Source: a virus
Taxonomy: Duplodnaviria; Heunggongvirae; Uroviricota; Caudoviricetes
Virus record (IMG/VR): IMGVR_UViG_3300044984_001938
DNA: 64,000 nt
Direction: 5' to 3' (one strand)
Under the pieces are notes generated by a model. It did not search any database. It had not been told where the DNA came from and was given only the letters and a program-made list of their open reading frames with translations. Both the position numbers and the translations under genes were made by a program. Shown piece after piece: positions 8,251-42,258 of this stretch (position 1 is its first letter; every line of letters starts with the position of its first letter).

Positions 8251-9081
8251 ATGAAACAATTACTCACACTCCTAATATTGCTGTTCTCGGCACTTGTCTA
8301 TGCACAATCTCCAACTTCAACAGTACCACTTTCCCCGGATATAGCCGCAATTAAGAAGAAAAATGTCTTGGTTGTAGCAATGACCAAAAAAGATAACCCT
8401 CCCTTCTTTAGTGGGGATGAAAAAAACATACGCGGGCTAGATGTTGAAATTGCTCAACGCATAGGGGTATTACTTGGGGTGCCTGTGGAATTTCGCAGAG
8501 ATGCAGAAAGTTTTGCCGATGTAGTTGAACAAGTTAGGTCTGGTGCCGCAGATGTTGCAGTAAGTAAACTGTCAATCACAGGTCCAAGACTACTTACAGT
8601 TCGCTTTAGTGATCCGTACATCAAACTCAAGCAAGCAATGATTATTAATCGCTTATGGCTAAGTCAACACGGTCAAGGCCGAGAAGTGTATGAAGTGATT
8701 AGAACATTTAACGGCAAGATATCTTTCATCCGTAACAGTAGTTATGATACATTTGCCCGTGCAAATTTCCCCAAAGCAATATATACTCCCGAAGATAGTT
8801 GGGATACGATTGTCAATAATGTAACTAGCGGTGCAATTGCTGCTGGATATAGAGATGAGTTTGAAATTAAGAAAATCTCATTTGAAAAGCCTAATGCAGC
8901 AATTACTACAAAAACTGTAACTATTTCTGACTCTATTGATAATATTGCAGTTGCAGTAAATATTAACTCACCCCAACTACTAAGCATAGTAAACTATGTA
9001 ATTAAAAATGATTACAGTAATATTGACACTAAAAAGTTAATGGACCGATACAAGGCTGAAAAGTCTCCTGTAAAGAAATAA
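8251..9081 (+). CDS. secreted periplasmic solute-binding protein (SBP family 3, amino-acid-binding-like)
   Basis: The signal peptide is MKQLLTLLILLFSALVYAQSP. Size (276 aa) and the VAMTKKDNPPFF..GLDVEIAQ..GV pattern are typical of polar-amino-acid-binding proteins. Confidence 0.5.
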   Translation: MKQLLTLLILLFSALVYAQSPTSTVPLSPDIAAIKKKNVLVVAMTKKDNPPFFSGDEKNIRGLDVEIAQRIGVLLGVPVEFRRDAESFADVVEQVRSGAADVAVSKLSITGPRLLTVRFSDPYIKLKQAMIINRLWLSQHGQGREVYEVIRTFNGKISFIRNSSYDTFARANFPKAIYTPEDSWDTIVNNVTSGAIAAGYRDEFEIKKISFEKPNAAITTKTVTISDSIDNIAVAVNINSPQLLSIVNYVIKNDYSNIDTKKLMDRYKAEKSPVKK

Positions 9082-9093
9082 TTAGGAAATAAA

Positions 9094-10380
9094 ATGAAAT
9101 TTAATTTAAAAAACTTCTTATCTAGTCCGTGGACTATTTTAGGATCAATCATAATCGGAGTGTTGGCAGGAGTACATGCACCTGCATTAAGTATGAACTT
9201 TGAAAGTGTTGGTGGAATTTACATTAGCTTGCTTAAAGTTGTTGTAGTACCTTTCTTGCTTGCAACAATTTTAGTTGGGGTTGTTAGTCTTTTACAGAAA
9301 GAAGGCAGCGCCGCAATGATACGAAAGATTATCATAGGCTTCATTGCAAGTATGTTCATTGCCGCAGTGATAGGAGTTGGTACTGTTGCTGTTACCGGCA
9401 GTGAAATGACACCTGCAAAACAATCTCAACTTGGTGCAATTGTCAACGATAAAGATTCTGGTAGTGATCTAAACATCACTCTAACAGAACCCATGCCCAA
9501 GGCTCCACATATTGATCCAATACTGATGGCACAAAAGTTTATTCCGGAAAACATCTTTAACACCCTGGCTGCAGGTGAAAGTTTAAAGATTGTTATCTTT
9601 TGTTTGATATTTGGTATTGCACTGGGCAATATTAAAAGTTCTGGACAAGAAATGCTAGTAGATGTATTGAAAAGTGTACAACAGGCCAGCATCAGTATCT
9701 TTAAGTTTTTAAACTACTTTCTACCGTTTGCTTTATTAGCAATGATCAGCAGTCAAGTTGGTAAAGTTGGAGTTGGCATATTCTTGACCATGGTTGAGTT
9801 TATCATGCAACAAGCAATTGGTGGATTCTTAATTATTGCACTAGGTACTGTTGTCATCTGGAAGCGTTCAGGTCTTAGCTTGATGACTGTTATTCGTGAA
9901 ACCAAAGAAACACTAATTGTTGCGGTTAGCTCACGCAGTAGTTTAGCATGTATCCCATACGCACAAGAAGCATTGCATAAGTTGAAATTTGACAAAACAG
10001 GTGTTGAGTTAACTGTTCCGCTGAGTTTTACAGTTAATCGTATTGGTAGTATTGCGTATTATGCAATTGCCACAGTGTTTATTGCCAACATTTATGGGGC
10101 TCCAATGGGAGTAACCGGGTTGTTAGTTGTATTGTTTGGTAGTATTCTTGCTGGGCTAGCCAGTGCAGGTACAACAGGTATTCTTACAGTTGCTACCGTA
10201 GCAGTTGTTTGTGATTTATTAAAACTTCCAAGTGAAGCAGTATTGGTATTGTTGATTGCAGTTGATCCATTAATGGACATGATTCGTACAGCAAGCCATG
10301 TACACGGTAATGTGGCTGTGACCGCTTTCGTGTGTGATAAAGAGCCAGAATATGGACAAGATCAAAGAGTTACTGCTTAG
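9094..10380 (+). CDS. dicarboxylate/amino acid:cation symporter (DAACS, GltP/GltT-like)
   Basis: 428 aa polytopic membrane protein. The glycine-rich hydrophobic segments and the DPLMDMIRTASHVHGNVAV region are typical of sodium:dicarboxylate symporters. Confidence 0.65.
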   Translation: MKFNLKNFLSSPWTILGSIIIGVLAGVHAPALSMNFESVGGIYISLLKVVVVPFLLATILVGVVSLLQKEGSAAMIRKIIIGFIASMFIAAVIGVGTVAVTGSEMTPAKQSQLGAIVNDKDSGSDLNITLTEPMPKAPHIDPILMAQKFIPENIFNTLAAGESLKIVIFCLIFGIALGNIKSSGQEMLVDVLKSVQQASISIFKFLNYFLPFALLAMISSQVGKVGVGIFLTMVEFIMQQAIGGFLIIALGTVVIWKRSGLSLMTVIRETKETLIVAVSSRSSLACIPYAQEALHKLKFDKTGVELTVPLSFTVNRIGSIAYYAIATVFIANIYGAPMGVTGLLVVLFGSILAGLASAGTTGILTVATVAVVCDLLKLPSEAVLVLLIAVDPLMDMIRTASHVHGNVAVTAFVCDKEPEYGQDQRVTA

Positions 10381-10957
10381 TTTATTAAACTACATAGGTG
10401 AAAGTCCATTTCGCTTATTCACGGTTATTCTATTATGTGTACTGGGATTTGGCGGATGGATCATATACTCAGAAAAAGATGCGTTTATTGCTAGTTATCG
10501 GGCTCAACAGGCCATGCCAAAGATGAATGGCCGATATGAGGATGCACATAACTTTTTGCTGAAAAACACCACTGCTGAAATGGTGGCTATATTAGAAGTA
10601 AATACACTTTCAAATACAAGAAAAATAGCATTTTTATCTACCCGCGGCGCCGGTAGAGATAAAAATCACGATGGTGTTAATGTTGGGTTGTTCTCAAAAA
10701 ATTATGATAACAACACCGATGTGATCAGTTTAATGTCGGGTAAAATTCCCTGTAGTTCATATCTCAAACCGCAAAGTTTGATTGGATTTGTATATCGTGA
10801 TTATGGGGTGAATTTCATGTGCAGAATCAGTGTACCGGCTGAACCCGGTGTTTTCATTGGACAAATAAGTGTGGGTTGGAAAGAACCCCCAGACAACATA
10901 GAAGAAATTCAAACCGCTATGATGATTGCTTCTTCAATACTGTATAGTAAGAAATGA
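10352..10957 (+). CDS. hypothetical membrane-anchored protein
   Basis: The ORF 10334-10957 has one N-terminal TM helix (FRLFTVILLCVLGFGGWIIY) followed by a soluble domain. The start is ambiguous. It overlaps the symporter end. Confidence 0.35.
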   Translation: MDKIKELLLSLLNYIGESPFRLFTVILLCVLGFGGWIIYSEKDAFIASYRAQQAMPKMNGRYEDAHNFLLKNTTAEMVAILEVNTLSNTRKIAFLSTRGAGRDKNHDGVNVGLFSKNYDNNTDVISLMSGKIPCSSYLKPQSLIGFVYRDYGVNFMCRISVPAEPGVFIGQISVGWKEPPDNIEEIQTAMMIASSILYSKK

Positions 10958-11012
10958 TACTTCCTTCTATTATCAGTGTTGTGTTACTAGTGATACTAAT
11001 ATTGGTGTTAAT

Positions 11013-11726
11013 ATGAGCAAGCGGCTTGGTGTATTGGGTGGTATGGGGCCTGCTGCTTCAGCCGAATTTATGGTAAGACTGATTGCTCAAACTCCGGCAA
11101 AGCGTGACCAAGACCATATCCCTGCAATTCTTTGGAGCGACACCACAGTTCCAGACCGTAGCACTAGTATGCGAAATGGTGATGACAAACCGTTACCCTA
11201 CCTGTTAGCGGGAATACAAGGATTAATATCAACCGGTTGTAATATAATTGTTATACCATGCAATACTGCACATTTTTGGTTTAACGAAATGGAAAAACAA
11301 GCATCGTGGCATGCTAAAATTGCTCATATTGTAGATAGTGTTGCAGATGCATTAAGAGACATAAAAGTTACTAATGCTAAAATAGGCGTCATGGGTACAC
11401 AAGCAACTATTGAGTTGGGTATGTATCAGTACCGTCTAAATAAGTTAGGTTGGGATTGTATTGCACCGACTAAAGAAGAAATGGATACACTAGTACAGCC
11501 TGCCATTGATTTAATTAAAGCCAATCAGATTGCAGAAGCATATCCAATGTTAATGACTGTAATTCATAGTCTTATTGACAAAGGAGCAAAAGCAGTGGTA
11601 TTAGGCTGCACTGAAATACCACTGTCTATTAAAGAAGATACAGTACAGGATACACCAATAATTAACAGCATTGACAGTTTAGTAAAGTCTGTTATTAAAG
11701 AATTCAAAAAGGGGAAACTAACATGA
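11013..11726 (+). CDS. aspartate/glutamate racemase family protein
   Basis: MSKRLGVLGGMGPAASAEF is the racemase N-terminal motif, and the second catalytic Cys sits in VVLGCTEIPL. The internal Met was chosen as the start because the track ORF at 10926 overlaps the upstream gene. Confidence 0.75.
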   Translation: MSKRLGVLGGMGPAASAEFMVRLIAQTPAKRDQDHIPAILWSDTTVPDRSTSMRNGDDKPLPYLLAGIQGLISTGCNIIVIPCNTAHFWFNEMEKQASWHAKIAHIVDSVADALRDIKVTNAKIGVMGTQATIELGMYQYRLNKLGWDCIAPTKEEMDTLVQPAIDLIKANQIAEAYPMLMTVIHSLIDKGAKAVVLGCTEIPLSIKEDTVQDTPIINSIDSLVKSVIKEFKKGKLT

Positions 11727-12049
11727 ACTTATCATCGGTTATATTTGTAATCGCAGTATTTGCCTCAGGTGGTGTTTTCGCACAAGCAAAAAGTCCCGAA
11801 GAACTTGTGAATGTGAAAATAGCATGTTATGATACTGATATACTAATTAAAACATTACTTGATACACATAAAGAGTATCCCATACTTATGGGGATAACCG
11901 ACGATAACGCAAATTCCACTATGGCAGTTTGGATAAACTTTAGAACTAAAACATGGACTATAGTTGCTACTAAGGAAAAGGTAAGCTGTGTTATTGTATC
12001 AGGTAAGGGAATAGAATTAGTTCCATATAAAAAGGAACCAATGATTTGA
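11723..12049 (+). CDS. small secreted hypothetical protein
   Basis: 108 aa with signal peptide MNLSSVIFVIAVFASGGVFAQA. ATGA overlap with the racemase gene. Confidence 0.4.
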   Translation: MNLSSVIFVIAVFASGGVFAQAKSPEELVNVKIACYDTDILIKTLLDTHKEYPILMGITDDNANSTMAVWINFRTKTWTIVATKEKVSCVIVSGKGIELVPYKKEPMI

Positions 12050-12783
12050 AGAAAACTGTACTATTTTTGCTATTAGCCGCATCCCAATGTGTAACTTATG
12101 CACAATCCAATTTAACGGCTCAAGCATGGTTGATTGCAGATGCTAATGGTGCAATACTTGAGGGTGTGCATACCACTGAGGTTAGGGCTATTGCTAGTAT
12201 AACTAAATTAATGACAAGTATGGTTGTATTAGATAGTGGGCAATCATTAACTGAAACAATTCCCAAGAAACTTTACAATAGAAAATTCACCAGACAAGAA
12301 TTATTCAATTTAGCAATTGTTAAATCAGACAACAATGCTGCTAGAATGTTATGCGAATACTATCCTGGTGGAGTTAAAAAATGTGTTGAAGCAATGAATA
12401 CAAAAGCTAGTTCATTAGCTATGAATAATAGCCGGTTTACTGACCCAACTGGGTTGTTTAACACCAATGTAAGTACCGCAGAAGATTTAGTTAAATTAGT
12501 AATGGCTGCAAAGAATTACCCAATCATCACTAATGCAAGTAATACATCAATCATTAAATGGAAAATCAATAAGAAGAAATCTGCGGTCTTTCACAATACT
12601 AACAGGCTAGTGGGCAAAGGTGTTGATTTTATAGTAAGTAAAACAGGATGGATAACTGCCAGTGGCGGATGTATTGTTATGATGTTACAGGGTGAGCAGG
12701 GTATTAGGACTGTAATCCTATTAGGTAGCAAGAATACACAGACACGCATCCCAGAAGCGTATATGTTATCTAAGCTACATTAA
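12046..12783 (+). CDS. D-alanyl-D-alanine carboxypeptidase / serine beta-lactamase-fold protein (peptidase S11-like)
   Basis: It has a signal peptide plus the three penicillin-binding-protein motifs in order: SITKLMT (SxxK), SDNNAAR (SxN) and KTGWIT (KTG). Confidence 0.75.
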   Translation: MKKTVLFLLLAASQCVTYAQSNLTAQAWLIADANGAILEGVHTTEVRAIASITKLMTSMVVLDSGQSLTETIPKKLYNRKFTRQELFNLAIVKSDNNAARMLCEYYPGGVKKCVEAMNTKASSLAMNNSRFTDPTGLFNTNVSTAEDLVKLVMAAKNYPIITNASNTSIIKWKINKKKSAVFHNTNRLVGKGVDFIVSKTGWITASGGCIVMMLQGEQGIRTVILLGSKNTQTRIPEAYMLSKLH

Positions 12784-15065: not shown

Positions 15066-15347
15066 TTATTTATTAATAGTTAAGTTAGACCATTTTTTCA
15101 GCTTCTCAAATTTTTGTTTCTTTGCTAAACTGATCCCAGTTTGAGTAACTCCGATCTTCATATCAACTAGCAATTCAACCATGGCAAACAGGTCACCAAT
15201 TTCTTCTTCAAGCATATTAAGATTGGTTTTATCTTTACCTGGCTTCATTTGGTCAGGTCCAAACCGCATACACTTACTAACAGCTTGTGTTACTTCTGCA
15301 CATTCTTCTTGCAGGATTAACATGATTTCTTTTAATTCATTATTCAT
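15066..15347 (-). CDS. MazG-like nucleoside triphosphate pyrophosphohydrolase (small all-alpha NTP-PPase)
   Basis: LILQEECAEV...LEEEIGDLF is the EExxE/D metal-binding pattern of MazG-type domains. The protein is 93 aa. Confidence 0.5.
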   Translation of the reverse strand: MNNELKEIMLILQEECAEVTQAVSKCMRFGPDQMKPGKDKTNLNMLEEEIGDLFAMVELLVDMKIGVTQTGISLAKKQKFEKLKKWSNLTINK

Positions 15348-15574
15348 TCTTCAACTCCGAAATGATTTTTAACACTATCTCTAATCCGGTGCATAGTATC
15401 TATCTCCATATAATCAACTGGAGTTTCAAGTATAACCTTGGCACATTCTGCCACAATCAACTGAGCGAACTTTTCATCCCTGGTGTCATACCAATCTGCA
15501 TTGGCATCGGTATCGCAAATATCATTGGCATATTTGTCAGCCTGTATAACAAGTTCTTTAATTTGTTTGTTCAT
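15344..15574 (-). CDS. HFGVEE-family small protein (paralog 1)
   Basis: MNKQIKELVIQA...EKFAQLIVAECAKV...HFGVEE. Confidence 0.55.
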   Translation of the reverse strand: MNKQIKELVIQADKYANDICDTDANADWYDTRDEKFAQLIVAECAKVILETPVDYMEIDTMHRIRDSVKNHFGVEE

Positions 15575-15780
15575 TCTTCAACTCCGAAATGATGTTTAAT
15601 TTGATGTCCTGGGTCTGCCCATCCACCATCGGCAACCTTAGCACATTCCTGAACAATCAACTGGGCGAACTTTTCTTTATTAAACTTATAGTGTTGAACT
15701 ACTGTTTGATTGTAGGAATCAAAAGTTTGGTAATCAAGTTCATCAGCCTGCTGGGCAAGTTGATTAATTCGTTCGTTCAT
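15571..15780 (-). CDS. HFGVEE-family small protein (paralog 2)
   Basis: MNERINQLAQQA...EKFAQLIVQECAKV...HFGVEE. Confidence 0.55.
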   Translation of the reverse strand: MNERINQLAQQADELDYQTFDSYNQTVVQHYKFNKEKFAQLIVQECAKVADGGWADPGHQIKHHFGVEE

Positions 15781-15938
15781 CGTATTTCCTCTAATGCTCG
15801 TTTAACGTGTTTCTTTTTGTAGTGTGAAAAGTATTTGATAATTTCTTCATCAAACAAATAGTGCGGGTTACTCAAATTATGAGCACCGATAAACTCCTCA
15901 ACCTCGTCCAACAATTCTTGGAACTTTTCTGGTTTCAT
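15777..15938 (-). CDS. small hypothetical protein (53 aa, not in ORF track)
   Basis: Hand-translated as MKPEKFQELLDEVEEFIGAHNLSNPHYLFDEEIIKYFSHYKKKHVKRALEEIR. It fills the gap between paralogs and has ATGA overlaps on both sides. Confidence 0.3.
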   Translation of the reverse strand: MKPEKFQELLDEVEEFIGAHNLSNPHYLFDEEIIKYFSHYKKKHVKRALEEIR

Positions 15939-16129
15939 TCTTCAACTCCGAAAAGTTCTGTACCTGCCGCAACATGTCCGCTAGTAACTGCTTTACCGTT
16001 GCGTATAACCATTTCATTCCACATGCCTAATTCAAAGTTCCAACGAATGTATTGTTGATTAGGCAACTCGTACCATTTTCCGTCTCGGGGAGTATCGGCA
16101 AATTTTACTCTAGTTTCAACTTCGTTCAT
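15935..16129 (-). CDS. HFGVEE-family divergent member
   Basis: It begins MNE and ends LFGVEE. The middle region is divergent. Confidence 0.4.
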   Translation of the reverse strand: MNEVETRVKFADTPRDGKWYELPNQQYIRWNFELGMWNEMVIRNGKAVTSGHVAAGTELFGVEE

Positions 16130-16380
16130 TCTTCAACTCCGAAATGTTGTTTGATCTTGCCGACATAGGTTGAAGCAGGTTCACGATGATTTACTGCATT
16201 CTCTACAACACCTGCACATTCCTGCACAATCAACGCAGCGAACTTTTCTATTTGCTCTAATCCGTCTTGTTCAGAGTCAGCCAGGGCGTCAACCGTACCC
16301 CAGTAGTGTAGCAAGAGTGCTGGACCTAGTCTAGCCTGTAGAGCAAGTTGATTAATTCGTTCGTTCATTTTATACTCCAA
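16126..16380 (-). CDS. HFGVEE-family small protein (paralog 4)
   Basis: The internal start MNERINQLALQA is likely. The protein then runs ...EKFAALIVQECAGV...HFGVEE. Confidence 0.55.
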   Translation of the reverse strand: MEYKMNERINQLALQARLGPALLLHYWGTVDALADSEQDGLEQIEKFAALIVQECAGVVENAVNHREPASTYVGKIKQHFGVEE

Positions 16381-16600
16381 ACCGTTTGATAATTGTATTA
16401 AGTGCAGTGATGGCTACACTGTCACCTACAACATCATCAGGGTGCAGCCAAATACCGTCTGGGTTATCTTCCGTTAGTGGGTTCTTACGCCAAGCGGCGA
16501 GTTCTTTTGTAAGATAGCTCTTGTACTCTTTTAATGTCAGCAGTGTAATACGATCTGCTGTTTCACCGTCTAGGGTGATTGGTCCGATTCGTTTGGTCAT
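16370..16600 (-). CDS. hypothetical small protein ending in RFGV
   Basis: 76 aa. Only the C-terminal FGV is shared with the family. Confidence 0.4.
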   Translation of the reverse strand: MTKRIGPITLDGETADRITLLTLKEYKSYLTKELAAWRKNPLTEDNPDGIWLHPDDVVGDSVAITALNTIIKRFGV

Positions 16601-16740
16601 AGTGAATCCCTCAATTTTTGAATCTTACGCAACACTAGGAGACATTCATTAAAACTCTTGCCTTCTTTTTCCATTCTAGTCAGCAAAATCTCTAATCGCA
16701 TAATCTCTTCCGACTTTTGATCACGGGTTAACATTGTCAT
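16597..16740 (-). CDS. small hypothetical protein (47 aa, not in ORF track)
   Basis: Hand-translated as MTMLTRDQKSEEIMRLEILLTRMEKEGKSFNECLLVLRKIQKLRDSL. It is preceded by a degenerate copy of the junction motif and overlaps the next gene by ATGA. Confidence 0.25.
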   Translation of the reverse strand: MTMLTRDQKSEEIMRLEILLTRMEKEGKSFNECLLVLRKIQKLRDSL

Positions 16741-16857
16741 TCTTCAACCCATGTTATCTTGTGGATGATCATCTTTTGGCTGTGTATCTAAATATTGAAA
16801 GAATTTAACAAGACAATATACACTAACAATTAACTGAACCAATTCAACAATCATGCG

Positions 16858-17091
16858 TTACTCCTTGAAATGTTCTATCACTGCGTCAGCAACATCAAGG
16901 TAAGTGTTCTGCGGGAAATTATTGGCCACAACCTGCATTGTTTCTTTGACAATCAGTTCGGCGAACTTTTCTAAATCACGATTAGCTGATTCAGGAAAAT
17001 CAATTGGGTTATCAGTGTTGGTATAGTGCGGCTGCTGTGTCTTCCACTCTAATCCAGCTTGCCGCGCAAGTTGTTTAATTCGTTCGTTCAT
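16858..17091 (-). CDS. HFGVEE-family small protein (paralog, ends HFKE)
   Basis: MNERIKQLARQA...EKFAELIVKE...EHFKE. Confidence 0.5.
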   Translation of the reverse strand: MNERIKQLARQAGLEWKTQQPHYTNTDNPIDFPESANRDLEKFAELIVKETMQVVANNFPQNTYLDVADAVIEHFKE

Positions 17092-17411: not shown

Positions 17412-17860
17412 GCTAATTCCTTCAAATACTTTTCATGTTGAACCCAATCCCCATTACACAAGAAACCCCAATCGCGTGATTGCGGTCCCATAAAGAATAA
17501 TGTAGTAGCAGTACCGCCCGCTTTCAATTCAAGCCAATGATACTCGTTTGCTTTGCGATAGATCACGCTGCCTGGTCCGCGCCATTCTTGAAATTCAGTA
17601 ATCACTTTACCTTCATAATTGAAAACAGGGGTATGCTCATAGTAGCCGCCTCTAAGAATGATGGTCATGTAATCCCAAGGATGATCATGCAAAATTGGGT
17701 CGTCACTCCGAACAATCTTGTGCAAGGTGACATTAAAGGGGAACCATTTGCGATCTTTGAGAAAGATATAATAACGATGTATATAATCTGCTCCAGTCCT
17801 ACGATCTGGAATCAATCTATAGCGACCTAACTTATTCATTACATTATGAAAGAAACTCAT
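17408..17860 (-). CDS. cupin-like hypothetical protein
   Basis: The His-rich segment HDHPWDYMTIILRGGYYEH is suggestive of a cupin metal site. Weak. Confidence 0.35.
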   Translation of the reverse strand: MSFFHNVMNKLGRYRLIPDRRTGADYIHRYYIFLKDRKWFPFNVTLHKIVRSDDPILHDHPWDYMTIILRGGYYEHTPVFNYEGKVITEFQEWRGPGSVIYRKANEYHWLELKAGGTATTLFFMGPQSRDWGFLCNGDWVQHEKYLKELA

Positions 17861-17910
17861 TCAATACTCCCTTCGCTTATTATAGCACATAAATGATTTT
17901 AGTGCAAGTG

Positions 17911-17940
17911 AAAAAGGGTGCATAAAGCACCCTTTTCTTG
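17911..17940. terminator. rho-independent terminator, bidirectional hairpin
   Basis: aaaaagggtgc-ataaa-gcaccctttt is a perfect 8-bp GC-rich stem with A/T runs on both sides. It sits immediately downstream of the minus-strand gene ending at 17960. Confidence 0.6.
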
Positions 17941-20799: not shown

Positions 20800-20854
20800 T
20801 CCTTTAATTAACTGTCTAAGAGTATATTATATCACCAAAACCATTTGTTGTCAA
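20800..20854 (-). promoter_or_regulatory. sigma70-type promoter with conserved leader (TTGACA-17-TATAAT)
   Basis: On the minus strand, -35 TTGACA is at 20854-20849, followed by a 17-nt spacer and -10 TATAAT at 20831-20826. The leader atactcttagacagttaattaaaggact precedes the ATG at 20791. Confidence 0.7.
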
Positions 20855-20858
20855 CCTT

Positions 20859-21098
20859 TTACAGTGCTTCCAACTTAGCGATTTCAGCCTTCAATGCCTG
20901 AATTCGTTCAGCAACAACTTTAGCTTTGACAAGTGGAATCTGTTTCATTACATCATCAAAAAACTTGTTAAAAGTAACCCCTAGATTCTCGGCAGCAGGG
21001 CGCCATTCCCTTTGAGAAACCATACCTTGTGTCAGTTTGTCTTTAACTGCTTTTTCAGCATATTGATTGATTGCGTTTGTGTATTTTATTGTTGCCAT
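20859..21098 (-). CDS. hypothetical protein (early gene)
   Basis: 79-aa ORF downstream of promoter copy 2. Confidence 0.4.
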   Translation of the reverse strand: MATIKYTNAINQYAEKAVKDKLTQGMVSQREWRPAAENLGVTFNKFFDDVMKQIPLVKAKVVAERIQALKAEIAKLEAL

Positions 21099-21103
21099 TT
21101 TTA

Positions 21104-21159
21104 GTCCTTTAATTAACTGTCTAAGAGTATATTATATACCCAAAACCATTTATTGTCAA
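21104..21159 (-). promoter_or_regulatory. sigma70-type promoter with conserved leader (copy 2)
   Basis: -35 TTGACA at 21159-21154, 17-nt spacer, -10 TATAAT at 21136-21131, with the same leader. Confidence 0.7.
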
Positions 21160-21164
21160 CCTTT

Positions 21165-21443
21165 TTACACTAGATCCACTTGAATTTGTTTACCGCGGAT
21201 AGTAGTTCCGAGACCAGTTGGGATTCCAAACCGATTTGCTTTAGCTAGCAGCCGATCTTGGGCCAGTATTTCTAGTGCATCCCAGCACAATGAACGAGCA
21301 TTAGTCGTAGCAAATTGTTCGGACATTTGCTTGACAGTCAAGTATATGCCAATATCATTTTCACTACCATCACCCTTGAAAATCACACGAATTTTTTGAG
21401 AATTTTTCAAACCTTGGATAATAGCTTTTGTACGCATTTTCAT
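21165..21443 (-). CDS. hypothetical protein (early gene)
   Basis: 92-aa ORF downstream of promoter copy 3. Confidence 0.4.
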   Translation of the reverse strand: MKMRTKAIIQGLKNSQKIRVIFKGDGSENDIGIYLTVKQMSEQFATTNARSLCWDALEILAQDRLLAKANRFGIPTGLGTTIRGKQIQVDLV

Positions 21444-21444
21444 G

Positions 21445-21499
21445 TCCTTTAATTAACTGTCTAAGTATGTATTATATACCCAAAATCATTTAATGTCAA
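21445..21499 (-). promoter_or_regulatory. sigma70-type promoter with conserved leader (copy 3)
   Basis: -35 TTGACA at 21499-21494, 17-nt spacer, -10 TATAAT at 21476-21471, with the same leader. Confidence 0.65.
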
Positions 21500-35679: not shown

Positions 35680-35738
35680 AATTAACTGTCTAAGATTGTA
35701 TTATATACCCAAATTCATTTAATGTCAAATTTGGTTAA
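35680..35738 (-). promoter_or_regulatory. sigma70-type promoter with conserved leader (copy 4)
   Basis: -35 TTGACA at 35738-35733, 17-nt spacer, -10 TATAAT at 35715-35710, with the conserved cctttaattaactgtctaag leader. Confidence 0.7.
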
Positions 35739-36059: not shown

Positions 36060-36115
36060 GTCCTTTAATTAACTGTCTAAGATTGTATTATATACCCAAA
36101 TTCATTTAATGTCAA
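36060..36115 (-). promoter_or_regulatory. sigma70-type promoter with conserved leader (copy 5)
   Basis: -35 TTGACA at 36115-36110, 17-nt spacer, -10 TATAAT at 36092-36087. Confidence 0.7.
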
Positions 36116-39532: not shown

Positions 39533-39796
39533 CTATTCCCATTGATGTGTTTTGTCATTCCAGTGACGAGTATCGTACAGGTACAATTCACATTCGTAAC
39601 CAAACAGTCCAAATTCCATGCGTAGTCCAGCATGATCTTGTCTAATTGAATATGCTAATGCTAATTTAACAATATTTGCTGTACAGTAAATATTGGCTTC
39701 AACTGCTTTATTCTTAGTGAGTAGCTTGCTAGTACCTGTTAATATTTCAAAGCGGGTGCTGAAGGGATAGTCAATAGAAAAATTTATATTGATCAT
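39533..39796 (-). CDS. hypothetical protein
   Basis: 87 aa, ATGA-coupled to the family gene upstream. Confidence 0.4.
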   Translation of the reverse strand: MININFSIDYPFSTRFEILTGTSKLLTKNKAVEANIYCTANIVKLALAYSIRQDHAGLRMEFGLFGYECELYLYDTRHWNDKTHQWE

Positions 39797-40002
39797 TCTT
39801 CAACTCCGAAATATTCTTCTATCTCTTTCATCGCAGCGACTCCTACCATGCCTGATACTTTTTTATCAACAATGTCGAGGCATTTAATAACAATCAACCG
39901 GGCGAACACCTCTAAGTCTGGTTGTGGAAACGGGATTTCATTACCTAGCCTGTCGTATTTTCTAGTTGCTTCTTCAGCAAGCAGTTTAATTTGTTCGTTC
40001 AT
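39793..40002 (-). CDS. HFGVEE-family small protein (dispersed paralog)
   Basis: MNEQIKLLAEEA...FARLIVIKC...EEYFGVEE. Confidence 0.5.
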   Translation of the reverse strand: MNEQIKLLAEEATRKYDRLGNEIPFPQPDLEVFARLIVIKCLDIVDKKVSGMVGVAAMKEIEEYFGVEE

Positions 40003-40034: not shown

Positions 40035-40589
40035 TTATTCATTTTCTTTTTCGTTACTATGGGCTGCACATACTGTTTTAATCCAACCGCCACTAGTTTG
40101 CTCACCGGGAGCTCCGCATTCTTCACAAGTAACCCCACTCATGCTTTCTGCCATACGGACCATTCCGTCAATAATATCATCGCCACCTGTGTAGTAGAAG
40201 CGTAGTGTGCCAAACTTTTCTTTAACTTGATCTAGTGTAACTTGTGGAATCGGTTCAGGCACTTGTCTACTGTCTCCGGCAATAATTTCCGCAAGCCGTT
40301 TTTCTTTGTACTCTGGATTGATAACACTTTTCATTTCTTCTTCAAACAGATCAAAATTGCCCCCTCTGGCTTGTGTAGCCATATTGTTATAATCTATGGC
40401 CCACTTACGCTGTTTCTCTTGCCAATCAAGATGATGTTGGATATTGCCCATAAGTTGATCCAATATATTGAACCATCCTTCACCGCATGAAAAACCCCAA
40501 CACATGCAAGTCTCCATTGGAGATTTATTGCGGTTGACCATCATCTTTGGATACTTCTCGCATAATAGCGTATCTAATTCTTGTTTCAT
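40035..40589 (-). CDS. hypothetical Cys-rich protein
   Basis: 184 aa with CMCWGFSCGEGW and a C-terminal CEECG...C zinc-ribbon-like segment. Confidence 0.45.
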   Translation of the reverse strand: MKQELDTLLCEKYPKMMVNRNKSPMETCMCWGFSCGEGWFNILDQLMGNIQHHLDWQEKQRKWAIDYNNMATQARGGNFDLFEEEMKSVINPEYKEKRLAEIIAGDSRQVPEPIPQVTLDQVKEKFGTLRFYYTGGDDIIDGMVRMAESMSGVTCEECGAPGEQTSGGWIKTVCAAHSNEKENE

Positions 40590-40885
40590 TCTTCAACTCC
40601 AAAATGTTCTTTAATTTGATCAATACCTTGATCTACAGCATCATGCCAAGTACTTGAGTATTCTTGATTATTCATAGTCTGCCACGAGTGCATTTCATTC
40701 AGAATGGCACAACATTCACCTACAATCAACTTGGTGAACTCTCTCATTTGATCAAAAGTATACCCGTGCATATCTCCTTGTTCAGGATCATACCCTAACC
40801 ATTCTTGCGCTGGTAATTTAATTTGGTTGTTCATACCACCTCCACTACACGATATTGACTGTGCGGGTAATTCTTCATAAGCCAT
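40586..40885 (-). CDS. HFGVEE-family small protein (dispersed paralog)
   Basis: The internal start MNNQIKLPAQE is likely. The protein then runs ...FTKLIVGECCAIL...KEHFGVEE. Confidence 0.5.
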   Translation of the reverse strand: MAYEELPAQSISCSGGGMNNQIKLPAQEWLGYDPEQGDMHGYTFDQMREFTKLIVGECCAILNEMHSWQTMNNQEYSSTWHDAVDQGIDQIKEHFGVEE

Positions 40886-41418: not shown

Positions 41419-42258
41419 TCATGTCCACAAACTCTGCCTGATCTTAATTAAACGAATCAGCATTTCTGTATCTTCTTTTTCGTAGGCTTTTTCAATCTTG
41501 GATAACAGTTTCATGGCCTTGTTGCTTGCTTTTTTACTAGCAGTATCTTTTGAATTCATCCCAATCCAGTGATCACCATGTTCATTCCGCAAACTATCGC
41601 AGTAAGCACTCCACCCACTTGCATCATGTGGATCGGGACGATTGCGATAGGTAACTGTCCACCAAGTATAAAGTTCTTTGAGTTCCTTGGCCCTAATTGC
41701 TTGACTAGTAAGTACTGCCTCACCTTTCTTATCTTCATCCAAGAATTCTTCATTGGTAAGTGTCATTTCCCAATCAAGATGATCTAGCCCAGCCTGTGGA
41801 CAGCGCCACACCCTCCAACGCCACCAACCACTGGCCCAGAATGGAGGATTGTACTTAGCGCGGGCTGTTTTATCACCCCAGGCAATGTGTGACCATGCTT
41901 GTTCAATTTCAACAAAGTCTACCAGTTCGTTAAACAAGCAAGGAAGAAACCGATTACCAACATCGCACCAATCACCAGGCTTAATATCACGCGCATGGGC
42001 AGTAAGACTGTGAGTACGACTAACCCAGCGATTATTGATGTAATACTTGATGCTGTATAAACTTCTAATAGGCCAAGTGACAAAATCTTGGATATCACCA
42101 AGGGCTTCTTCAGCTACCCAATAGCGGAAGTTATGTTTCATTTGAGCCCGAGTTGTCCATTCATTCCATTCTTCGGCTGTGCCTGCTTTAAGTTTGTTAG
42201 TGCCTCGAATCCAATCAGCGAGTGGACCGCAAGACCAATAGTGTGTGTGCTGTGCCAT
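41419..42258 (-). CDS. hypothetical Trp-rich protein
   Basis: 279-aa ORF. Confidence 0.45.
   Translation of the reverse strand: MAQHTHYWSCGPLADWIRGTNKLKAGTAEEWNEWTTRAQMKHNFRYWVAEEALGDIQDFVTWPIRSLYSIKYYINNRWVSRTHSLTAHARDIKPGDWCDVGNRFLPCLFNELVDFVEIEQAWSHIAWGDKTARAKYNPPFWASGWWRWRVWRCPQAGLDHLDWEMTLTNEEFLDEDKKGEAVLTSQAIRAKELKELYTWWTVTYRNRPDPHDASGWSAYCDSLRNEHGDHWIGMNSKDTASKKASNKAMKLLSKIEKAYEKEDTEMLIRLIKIRQSLWT

What the first reader, a model, noticed from the sequence alone, without database searches (positions are those of the whole stretch)
15344..17091. Multi-copy family of small proteins ending in HFGVEE (tandem array plus dispersed copies)
At least nine ORFs of 69-99 aa belong to one family: 15344, 15571, 15935, 16126, 16858, 19824, 39793, 40586 and, more weakly, 16370. 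They share an N-terminal MNERI[NK]QLAxQA, a central EKFAQLIVxECA[KE]V and a C-terminal HFGVEE, with variable inserts. Five to six sit in one tandem array. Family expansion like this within a single phage genome is typical of rapidly evolving host-interaction or anti-defense genes.
Basis: seen in the sequence. Interest (0 to 1): 0.65.

Follow-up and report, generated by a model that had tools for sequence, protein, structure and literature searches.

The report
Cassette-shuffling small phage protein family
The window carries seven copies of an uncharacterised, very large family of ~70-residue phage proteins; the family is built from three near-constant sequence blocks and two swappable variable blocks, and its "GVEE" tail is mainly the ribosome-binding site and start codon of the next gene read as protein.

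Summary
Seven minus-strand ORFs are significant members (15344, 15571, 16126, 16858, 19824, 39793, 40586). ORFs 15935 and 16370 share only the gene-boundary sequence.

The family is large and unannotated:
- 9,346 clusters at 50% identity.
- No hit in Pfam, PHROGs, NCBIfam, PADLOC, PDB or Rfam.
- Absent from 50,697 cultured-phage records. Found only in uncultured phage contigs, often as arrays of up to 13 copies per 12 kb.

Each gene has the layout box1 (MNERIKELAEQA) – V1 – box2 (EKFAELIVREC) – V2 – box3 (IKEHFGVEE). V1 and V2 occur as discrete alleles that reassort. A 99%-identical strain has swapped one V1 exactly between box1 and box2. Another phage shares only half-genes at 94-97% nucleotide identity.

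The boxes are held constant even at synonymous sites. The tail is almost always GGAGTTGAAGAATGA, which reads as a Shine-Dalgarno sequence, a 7-nt spacer and an ATGA stop/start overlap. This 15-mer also ends unrelated ORFs.

AlphaFold predicts a three-helix scaffold formed by the boxes. The genes lie behind sigma-70-type early promoters.

Biochemical function is unknown. An early, acidic binder repertoire aimed at host or rival-phage targets is plausible but untested.

The parts
15344..15574 (-). Family copy, 76 aa (MNKQIKELVIQA ... EKFAQLIVAECA ... KNHFGVEE). Its stop overlaps the ATG of the MazG-like gene 15066-15347.
   Evidence: HMM E=3.7e-21; identical protein P0001; junction 15344-15361.
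15571..15780 (-). Family copy, 69 aa. Its stop overlaps the ATG of copy 15344.
   Evidence: HMM E=5.8e-23; junction 15571-15588; box1 15764-15780.
16126..16368 (-). Family copy, 80 aa from the ATG. Its V1 cassette is replaced in the 99%-identical strain L002/L003.
   Evidence: HMM E=3.3e-22; V1 swap of 103 nt for 61 nt with breakpoints in box1 and box2; AF2 model pLDDT 81.7.
16858..17091 (-). Family copy, 77 aa, ending HFKE. Its AAGGAG supplies the RBS for the 36-aa ORF 16744-16854.
   Evidence: HMM E=7.9e-22; its V2 is shared at 95-96% nt with a different V1 in phage L007.
19824..20033 (-). Dispersed family copy, 69 aa, ending HFGV. It lies about 0.8 kb downstream of a perfect sigma-70 consensus promoter.
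   Evidence: HMM E=7.5e-25; AF2 model pLDDT 79.6; promoter at 20826-20854.
39793..40002 (-). Dispersed family copy, 69 aa, ending YFGVEE. Its stop overlaps the ATG of 39533-39796.
   Evidence: HMM E=6.4e-18; junction 39793-39810.
40586..40885 (-). Dispersed family copy. The ORF is 99 aa and the family domain starts at the internal ATG at 40834 (MNNQIK...). Its stop overlaps the ATG of 40035-40589.
   Evidence: HMM E=2.1e-13, aligned from residue 18; junction 40586-40603.
15935..16129 (-). Non-family 64-aa ORFan inside the array. It starts ATGAACGAA and ends with the same junction (LFGVEE).
   Evidence: HMM E=13; own small family P0270-P0272; junction 15935-15952.
16370..16600 (-). Non-significant 76-aa ORF ending KRFGV. 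Its GGAG supplies the RBS of copy 16126.
   Evidence: HMM E=14; junction sequence.
15777..15938 (-). 53-aa ORF replaced by a different 61-aa gene in strain L002/L003. The breakpoints fall at the box3 junction and at box1 of copy 15571.
15434..15475 (-). Box2 DNA repeat (EKFAxLIVxECA). Further copies at 15634-15675, 16207-16248 and 16930-16971.
   Evidence: Direct-repeat family D3; synonymous-site bias across loci.
17870..17936 (-). Terminator-like hairpin followed by a TTGCAC-17-TATAAT promoter with TG extension and an RBS. It sits directly upstream of the operon 17860 to 15066 that holds the main array.
   Evidence: consensus match only.
20826..21499 (-). Three copies of a ~65-nt perfect sigma-70 promoter, leader and RBS cassette, upstream of the gene run that contains copy 19824.

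Best explanation
These are real protein-coding genes of a very large, unannotated family that so far appears only in uncultured phage sequences. Each gene encodes an acidic protein of about 65-90 residues.

Three near-constant segments are predicted to form the helices of a small helical bundle: box1 MNERIKELAEQA, box2 EKFAELIVREC and box3 IKEHF. Two variable cassettes, V1 and V2, form the exposed loop and helix ends.

The same three boxes are held nearly constant at the nucleotide level and act as short homology tracts. Recombination within them swaps V1 or V2 between paralogues and between phages, and expands or contracts arrays while keeping frame.

Each unit starts with ATGA and usually ends with GGAGTTGAAGAATGA. 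The terminal 'GVEE' is therefore a Shine-Dalgarno sequence, a 7-nt spacer and a stop/start overlap. It couples translation of the next gene and works as a portable gene boundary.

The genes lie in sigma-70-type, presumably early, operons.

Shown: family membership, cassette reassortment with breakpoints in the boxes, synonymous-site constancy of the boxes, and the junction anatomy.
Inferred: the fold, early expression and translational coupling.
Speculative: the proteins are a repertoire of small binders aimed at variable host or competitor targets.
For: Membership and size:
- 7 copies at E 1e-13 to 1e-25.
- 7,977 of 8,000 candidates match the profile.
- 9,346 clusters at 50% identity.
- Up to 13 copies per 12-kb locus in other phages.

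Cassette exchange:
- 256 parsed proteins give 133 V1 clusters and 156 V2 clusters in 217 combinations. One V1 pairs with 34 V2 types. There are 6 four-gamete violations.
- Among gene pairs that share a cassette at >=80% nt identity, 8 share V1 only, 12 share V2 only and 3 share both.
- Strain L002/L003 is 98-99.6% identical to the window in the flanking blocks. It has V1 of copy 16126 replaced, with breakpoints in box1 and box2, and a neighbouring ORF replaced between a box3 junction and the next box1.
- Phage L007 shares only half-gene modules with the window, at 94-97% nt identity.

Coding constraint: V alleles show far more synonymous than amino-acid change.

Nucleotide constancy of the boxes:
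- Gly GGA 104/106 against 25% background.
- Val GTT 105/106 against 40% background.
- TGA stop 103/106.
- Box1: Arg CGA 164 of 178 against 15% background.
- Box2: GAG 86% against 26%, and GCC 83% against 26%.
- Synonymous differences per conserved codon are 0.12-0.25 in the boxes, against 0.32-0.39 in shared V alleles.

Junction:
- 175 of 223 copies end in ATGA, and 156 of those open an ORF of >=40 aa.
- The 15-mer occurs 134 times in 875 kb. 117 occurrences end family ORFs and 17 end unrelated or remnant ORFs.
- The junction RNA shows no significant structure, z from -0.6 to +1.1.

Fold: two AF2 models, pLDDT 80 and 82, pTM 0.63 and 0.68. The helices coincide with the boxes and the GV(EE) tail is non-helical.

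Expression signals: perfect sigma-70 promoters and a hairpin-plus-promoter element lie upstream on the coding strand.

Charge: median pI 4.9 and median net charge -6.
Against: - There are no expression or protein data of any kind, and no cultured phage carries the family.
- The fold is a prediction on a mosaic alignment. V1 has low confidence (pLDDT 50-69).
- Constant synonymous sites could come from gene conversion alone, with no selected nucleotide function. The data do not separate 'the boxes are kept for recombination or translation' from 'the boxes are homogenised by recombination'.
- Promoters are consensus matches only.
- Three window copies (16858, 19824, 39793) lack a canonical junction or have a weak upstream SD.
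Confidence: 0.6

Rival explanations
1. Capsid-targeted ejection or internal proteins. In this reading the invariant N-terminus MNERIKELAE acts like the T4 capsid targeting sequence (MKTYQEFIAE, cleaved after L/I-x-E), loading a diverse set of anti-restriction cargo proteins into the head.
For: The phage belongs to the T4-related jumbo group by DNA polymerase. T4 internal proteins are described as a highly diverse set of defence-countering proteins that share only a conserved ~10-residue CTS. Box1 has I/L-x-E triplets at positions 5-7 and 8-10. The CTS cleavage rule is from my own recollection.
Against: T4 internal proteins are highly basic, whereas this family is acidic, with median pI 4.9. 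The genes sit behind sigma-70-type promoters in runs of small early-type genes, and TATAAATA late-promoter motifs are not enriched. Box2 and box3 are conserved as strongly as box1, which a targeting peptide alone does not explain. The resemblance to the CTS covers only 3-4 residues.
Confidence: 0.07
2. The repeats are primarily nucleotide elements (portable translation-initiation or gene-boundary cassettes and recombination linkers). In this reading the ORFs between them are evolutionary filler with no protein function.
For: Synonymous sites in all three boxes are nearly constant. The junction also caps unrelated ORFs. The GVEE tail is predicted to be unstructured.
Against: Hundreds of copies keep intact frames despite length-variable cassettes. 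V alleles show 89 synonymous against 31 amino-acid differences (V1) and 130 against 70 (V2), which indicates purifying selection on the peptide. Box residues follow an amphipathic-helix pattern and tolerate conservative substitutions (EKFAQLIV, EVFARLIV, REFTKLIV). AF2 gives a confident helical hairpin, pLDDT 94-97 over residues 41-70 of copy 16126.
Confidence: 0.12
3. An ordinary paralogous ORFan family decaying or drifting in a hyperplastic region. In this reading the mosaic pattern is only a by-product of generally high phage recombination, and the cassette architecture has no selected role.
For: T4-type phages shuffle accessory genes in hyperplastic regions by recombination at short repeats. 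Remnant and truncated copies exist in other loci.
Against: The family persists across thousands of clusters and many phage lineages, with the same five-part layout and intact ORFs. Half-gene sharing outnumbers whole-gene sharing 20 to 3, and breakpoints coincide with the boxes. All seven window copies are intact.
Confidence: 0.15
4. Diversity-generating retroelement or another targeted hypermutation system acting on V1 and V2.
For: Variable segments are flanked by constant ones.
Against: V alleles differ in length and are unrelated in sequence, rather than differing at adenine-templated positions. The same allele recurs almost unchanged in different genes and phages. No template-repeat copy of a V segment was found among the array repeats. 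No reverse transcriptase was seen among the ORFs that were scanned, and not all ORFs were scanned.
Confidence: 0.02

Closest known systems
gp38 tail-fibre adhesins of T2/T6-type phages: hypervariable segments separated by conserved glycine-rich motifs (Trojet et al. 2011, PMC3157838)
   Same: Conserved motifs that form the structural core alternate with independently exchangeable hypervariable segments. The authors present this modular design as enabling easy interchange of specificity determinants.
   Different: There is no sequence or fold relationship: no Pfam hit of any kind. gp38 is a single-copy late virion protein of about 260 aa. These are ~70-aa acidic proteins in multi-copy early-type arrays with only two cassettes, and their last conserved block doubles as the next gene's RBS.
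[quoted passage not shown] 2010, PMC2839356; Comeau et al. 2014, PMC4122927)
   Same: Short repeated sequences at gene boundaries in early accessory regions act as recombination substrates. Closely related phages then differ by insertions, deletions and replacements. The window also has repeated promoter cassettes and a hairpin-plus-promoter element upstream of the array.
   Different: Here the repeats lie inside coding sequence and at a translational stop/start junction. They carry no promoter and no stem-loop. They shuffle half-genes as well as genes.
T4 internal proteins IPI/IPII/IPIII with a shared capsid targeting sequence (PMC3012670, PMC8442874)
   Same: A short invariant N-terminal peptide precedes highly diverse sequence, and the diversity is interpreted as an arms race with host defences.
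   Different: Internal proteins are basic and packaged in the virion. This family is acidic, has two further conserved blocks, and lies behind sigma-70-type promoters.
Uncharacterised proteins of 'uncultured Caudovirales phage', e.g. UFOVP242_221 (P0101) and UniProt A0A6J5RVR4
   Same: True family members. The profile matches at E about 1e-18 over the full length, and the predicted folds match at TM 0.7.
   Different: None in kind. They carry no annotation, so membership adds no functional information.

Membership tests
Unnamed MNERI / EKFAELIV / HFGVEE small-protein family (uncultured Caudovirales hypothetical proteins) | Full-length match to the family profile (box1, box2 and box3 in order) | tested here: met
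   Seven window ORFs at E 2e-13 to 7.5e-25. ORFs 15935 and 16370 fail at E 13-14.
Unnamed MNERI / EKFAELIV / HFGVEE small-protein family | 3' end encodes GGAGTTGAAGAATGA with the stop overlapping the next gene's ATG | tested here: met
   Exact in 5 of the 7 window copies (15344, 15571, 16126, 39793, 40586). Variant forms occur in 16858 and 19824. 175 of 223 homologues end in ATGA.
Any Pfam, PHROG, NCBIfam or PADLOC family | Significant profile match | tested here: not met
   Only chance-level hits with E >= 0.006, all below the curated cut-offs where such cut-offs exist.
T4-type internal proteins (CTS-bearing) | About 10-residue N-terminal capsid targeting sequence ending in a prohead-protease site | tested here: inconclusive
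   Box1 is invariant and contains IKE/LAE triplets. Similarity to MKTYQEFIAE is limited to 3-4 residues. The protease and the cleavage event are not testable here.
T4-type internal proteins (CTS-bearing) | Highly basic, DNA-associated virion proteins | tested here: not met
   Median pI 4.9 and net charge -6. Window copies have pI 4.4-6.7. Compare 'highly basic'.
PeSL mobile regulatory cassettes | Sigma-70-like promoter plus terminator stem-loop forming the repeated unit at exchange boundaries | tested here: not met
   Exchange boundaries are the coding boxes and the stop/start junction. The junction shows no significant RNA structure and no promoter. A PeSL-like element does exist upstream of the operon at 17870-17936.
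gp38-type adhesin | Homology to gp38, with glycine-rich motifs separating the HVSs | tested here: not met
   No Pfam hit to any adhesin family. The boxes are helical rather than glycine-rich. The resemblance is architectural only.
Diversity-generating retroelement target | Template and variable repeat pair with adenine-specific substitutions, plus a reverse transcriptase | tested here: not met
   V alleles differ in length and overall sequence, and they recur unchanged in different genes. The only array repeats are the three boxes. Presence of an RT elsewhere in the genome was not tested exhaustively.
Anti-defence protein (generic) | Demonstrated inhibition of a defence system, or homology to a known inhibitor | not testable with these tools
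   No anti-defence library is available. No fold match to known inhibitors in PDB or BFVD.

The most novel reading that the evidence does not exclude
The family is a natural combinatorial binder library. A minimal three-helix scaffold has two specificity cassettes that are continually re-dealt among paralogues and among co-infecting phages, through three coding homology boxes kept constant at the nucleotide level. Each unit is built to concatenate in frame (ATGA ... GGAGTTGAAGAATGA) and to carry ribosomes on to the next gene. On this reading it is a widespread, previously undescribed phage strategy for keeping a large, rapidly reshuffled repertoire of early host-takeover or counter-defence proteins.
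Probability: 0.3. Interest if true: 0.85.

Novelty: new variant of a known kind. Interest (0 to 1): 0.66.

Why it matters
If the reading holds, one of the largest unannotated phage protein families becomes a tractable model. It has more than 9,000 clusters at 50% identity and is often present at 7-13 copies per locus. The model would address how phages generate and exchange specificity at sub-gene resolution.

The five-part layout gives an immediate annotation rule for thousands of 'hypothetical' ORFs. It cautions that conserved C-terminal 'motifs' in compact genomes can be translated ribosome-binding sites. It also supplies natural chimeras (same V1 with different V2, and the reverse) that are ready-made material for mapping which cassette determines target specificity.

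The finding extends the idea of linker-mediated modular shuffling, known for PeSLs and gp38, to coding boxes inside a 70-residue protein.

Tried and rejected
- Nucleotide and protein searches of 50,697 cultured-phage records found no relative of the region or of two family members.
- Pfam, PHROGs, NCBIfam, PADLOC, PDB sequence search and Rfam gave nothing meaningful.
- The scan of 185,579 species genomes found only 19 short MAG contigs, presumably mis-binned phage DNA, so no host could be assigned.
- A full-text search for the motifs found no paper.
- I tested whether the junction forms a regulatory hairpin around the SD and ATG. It does not, with z-scores from -0.6 to +1.1.
- I looked for domain fusions among the top 150 representative proteins. 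All are 61-158 aa. The longer ones whose sequences were read (from both protein searches) are N-terminal extensions, tandem duplications or read-through fusions.
- Neighbourhoods in a 363-kb relative were examined for informative partners. The neighbours were only unannotated small genes.
- I considered and rejected ORFs 15935 and 16370 as members.
- I considered a DGR and a T4-like capsid-targeting role and judged both unlikely (see rivals).
Full report
**Setting.** The window is phage DNA. It is a long run of small minus-strand genes together with a family-B DNA polymerase, an ATP-dependent ligase and a GP88-like protein. The polymerase is 43-48% identical to those of 346-490-kb jumbo phages such as Sinorhizobium phage Phosso, Agrobacterium phage Atu_ph07, Vibrio phage 2.275.O and Klebsiella phage RaK2. 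No cultured phage matches at the nucleotide level. The same sequence occurs on metagenomic contigs of up to 234,546 bp.

**Checking the observation.** All nine ORFs exist as described.
- With a profile built from 247 diverse homologues, exactly seven window ORFs are significant, at E 2e-13 to 7.5e-25: 15344, 15571, 16126, 16858, 19824, 39793 and 40586.
- ORFs 15935-16129 and 16370-16600 score E = 13 and 14.
- ORF 15935 has its own three-cluster ORFan family, with tails ELFGVEE, ELFGVEQ and ELYGI. It shares only the gene-boundary sequence.
- The 18-mer at the 3' end occurs six times exactly against 0.01 expected. The 5' 17-mer occurs seven times against 0.33 expected.
- All seven copies are intact.

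**Size and distribution of the family.**
- A profile search found 7,977 matches among the 8,000 candidates scored.
- An exhaustive HMMER search of representatives clustered at 50% identity found 9,346 clusters at E <= 1e-3 and 2,068 at E <= 1e-10. The 150 best-scoring are all 61-158 residues.
- None has a Pfam domain. The only source names are 'hypothetical protein' and, for one protein, a 'roadblock/LC7 domain' label, for example UFOVP242_221 of an uncultured Caudovirales phage.
- There is no meaningful hit in Pfam, PHROGs, NCBIfam, PADLOC, the PDB or Rfam, and no paper contains the motifs.
- Two members searched by tblastn against 50,697 cultured-phage records gave nothing credible.
- In 185,579 species genomes only 19 short MAG contigs carry it. 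Their project names look like lake or freshwater studies, which is my inference from the record titles.
- In IMG/VR at least 396 stretches encode relatives, on contigs from 4 to 374 kb.
- Multi-copy arrays are the rule, with up to 13, 12 and 11 copies within 12 kb in L041, L029 and L012.

**Anatomy.** Every member has the same five parts:

| Part | Typical sequence or size |
|---|---|
| box1 | MNERIKELAEQA |
| V1 | about 15-30 residues |
| box2 | EKFAELIVREC |
| V2 | about 20-35 residues |
| box3 | IKEHFGVEE |

The near-invariant residues are N2, E3, R4, I5, L8, A9 and A12; then E, K, F, A, L, I, V and E in box2; then H, F, G and V in box3.

**Cassette reassortment (shown).** V1 and V2 occur as discrete alleles that recombine freely.
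- In 256 parsed proteins there are 133 V1 clusters and 156 V2 clusters in 217 combinations. The V1 allele SHQSPDGYPVTIPYSKDF pairs with 34 V2 types. The V2 allele ETMQVVANNLPQNTYLDVADA pairs with 11 V1 types. There are six four-gamete violations.
- Among genes with DNA in hand, pairs sharing a cassette at >=80% nucleotide identity share V1 only (8), V2 only (12) or both (3). Some of these pairs are adjacent paralogues in one locus.
- Strain L002/L003 is 98-99.6% identical to the window across the flanks, and it differs in three blocks. V1 of copy 16126 (103 nt) is replaced by an unrelated 61-nt V1, with breakpoints in box1 and box2. The 53-aa ORF at 15781-15935 is replaced by a different 61-aa gene between a box3 junction and the next box1. 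A 136-nt stretch is deleted.
- A more distant phage, L007, shares with this 16-kb region only three pieces, at 94-97% identity. These are box2+V2 of copy 16858, junction+box1+V1+box2 of copy 15344, and the whole of copy 19824. Its genes are reciprocal chimeras with new partners.

**Coding constraint and nucleotide constraint.**
- Shared V alleles change mostly at synonymous sites. V1 shows 89 synonymous against 31 amino-acid differences in 258 codons. V2 shows 130 against 70 in 472 codons (example). The peptides are therefore under purifying selection. The diversity is a pool of discrete alleles, not hypermutation.
- The boxes, by contrast, are nearly constant at synonymous sites across about 80 contigs. 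In the tail, Gly is GGA in 104 of 106 (background 25%), Val is GTT in 105 of 106 (40%), Glu-Glu is GAA-GAA in 105-106 of 106, and the stop is TGA in 103 of 106.
- In box1, Asn is AAC at 86% (background 31%), Arg is CGA at 92% (15%) and Leu is CTT at 74% (15%).
- In box2, Lys is AAG at 87% (38%), Phe is TTC at 79% (28%), Ala is GCC at 83% (26%) and Glu is GAG at 86% (26%).
- Synonymous differences per conserved codon are 0.12-0.25 in the boxes, even between genes with unrelated cassettes. They are 0.32-0.39 within shared V alleles.
- Several preferred box codons are rare in the family's background, so codon bias does not explain the pattern. Either the nucleotide sequence is selected, or the boxes are continually homogenised by the same recombination that shuffles the cassettes. 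The data do not separate these two.

**The 'HFGVEE' tail.** The conserved 3' end reads CAT TTC GGA GTT GAA GAA TGA. GGAG lies 7 nt before an ATG that overlaps the stop codon as ATGA.
- In the window, all six occurrences of the 3' 18-mer, five on family copies and one on ORF 15935, open the next gene at that ATG.
- The copies with variant tails (HFKE, HFGV) and ORF 16370 (KRFGV) still place GGAG or GGGG 6-7 nt before the next start.
- Across loci, 175 of 223 copies end in ATGA, and 156 of those open an ORF of >=40 aa.
- The exact 15-mer occurs 134 times in 875 kb. It ends family ORFs 117 times and unrelated or remnant ORFs 17 times.
- The junction RNA shows no significant structure.
- Because members also begin with ATGA (Met-Asn), units can be joined or exchanged at junctions without disturbing either reading frame. 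This last point is my inference from the sequence.
- I conclude that H and F belong to the protein core, and that 'GVEE' is largely a translated ribosome-binding site and stop/start overlap. Translational coupling is inferred, not measured.

**Expression context (inferred).**
- Seven perfect TTGACA-N16-18-TATAAT matches lie on the coding strand, against 0.18 expected. Five of them belong to a repeated ~65-nt promoter, leader and RBS cassette. Three of those five lie just upstream of the gene run that contains copy 19824.
- The main array lies in a gene run that starts at 17860. Immediately upstream are a terminator-like hairpin and a TTGCAC-17-TATAAT promoter with a TG extension.
- T4-type late-promoter motifs are not enriched.
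- This pattern matches early, host-RNA-polymerase-dependent accessory regions of T4-type phages.

**Mechanism and rivals.**

*Best explanation (0.6).* This is a family of small acidic three-helix proteins. The scaffold is encoded by three boxes that also serve as recombination tracts. The third box is in addition a portable translational junction. The family is maintained as reshuffled multi-copy repertoires in early operons. It is untested.

*Rivals.*
- The ORFs are filler between nucleotide elements (0.12). Purifying selection on V peptides argues against this.
- An ordinary drifting ORFan family (0.15). The conserved layout across thousands of clusters and the 20:3 excess of half-gene sharing argue against this.
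- T4-like capsid-targeted internal proteins (0.07). T4 internal proteins are highly basic virion proteins, whereas these are acidic and lie behind sigma-70-type promoters.
- A DGR (0.02). The pattern of variation is wrong.

**Comparison with known systems.** The nearest analogues are architectural, not homologous.
- gp38 adhesins have hypervariable segments between conserved glycine-rich motifs.

This case differs in three ways. The linkers are coding boxes inside a ~70-residue protein. Half-genes are the unit of exchange. The 3' linker is a ribosome-binding stop/start junction. I rate it a new variant of a known kind, in a family that is itself undescribed.

Noticed in passing
window 8251-12783 (+ strand): A plus-strand island sits in an otherwise minus-strand phage region, with reversed GC skew. 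It encodes a family-3 solute-binding protein, a sodium:dicarboxylate (glutamate/aspartate-type) symporter, an unknown 207-aa protein, an Asp/Glu racemase and a DD-carboxypeptidase (Peptidase_S11). This is a host-like amino-acid uptake, D-amino-acid and peptidoglycan module. The S11 gene lies in the same position in related strains.
   Followed up: partly
window 20826-20854, 21131-21159, 21471-21499, 35700-35728, 36087-36115 (- strand): Five copies of a ~65-nt cassette: a perfect sigma-70 promoter, a conserved leader and an RBS (TTGACAWTAAATGRWTTTGGGTATATAAT...CTTAGACAGTTAATTAAAGGAC...ATG). Each precedes a small gene. This resembles the mobile regulatory cassettes of T4-type phages.
   Followed up: partly
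window 17870-17936 (- strand): A terminator-like hairpin (AAAAGGGTGC-TTTAT-GCACCCTTTTT) is followed immediately by an extended -10 promoter and an RBS. The arrangement is PeSL-like and sits at the head of the operon containing the main array.
   Followed up: partly
box2 versus box3 consensus (e.g. window 15434-15475 versus 15344-15361): Box2 DNA (TTCGCCGAGTTGATTGTGCGGGAATG) contains the same words in the same order as the junction (TTCG-GAGTTGA-AGAATG). It differs by a 2-nt indel and then a longer one. This may be chance, or a trace of the two-cassette gene having arisen by fusion of two units at a junction. It is unexplained.
   Followed up: no
P0125, P0135, P0145, P0078, P0052, P0017 (homologues): Some homologues have duplicated box2/V1 segments, or are tandem two-unit fusions, or are read-through fusions to the downstream gene (…HFGVEEMKRMI…). 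These look like footprints of unequal exchange and stop-codon loss at the boxes.
   Followed up: no
window 15571-15780 and 16126-16368: The two array copies share the unusual box1 variant MNERINQLA, with identical first 26 nt. The same V1 alleles in other phages carry IKELA or IKQLA. This suggests gene conversion of box1 within the genome.
   Followed up: no
L106 versus L107 (363-kb jumbo-phage contig and a related 13-kb contig): A second strain pair differs by small ORF insertions or deletions inside a family array. The array sits next to a Band_7 gene and a 279-aa protein the same length as window ORF 41419-42258. Homology between those two proteins was not checked.
   Followed up: no
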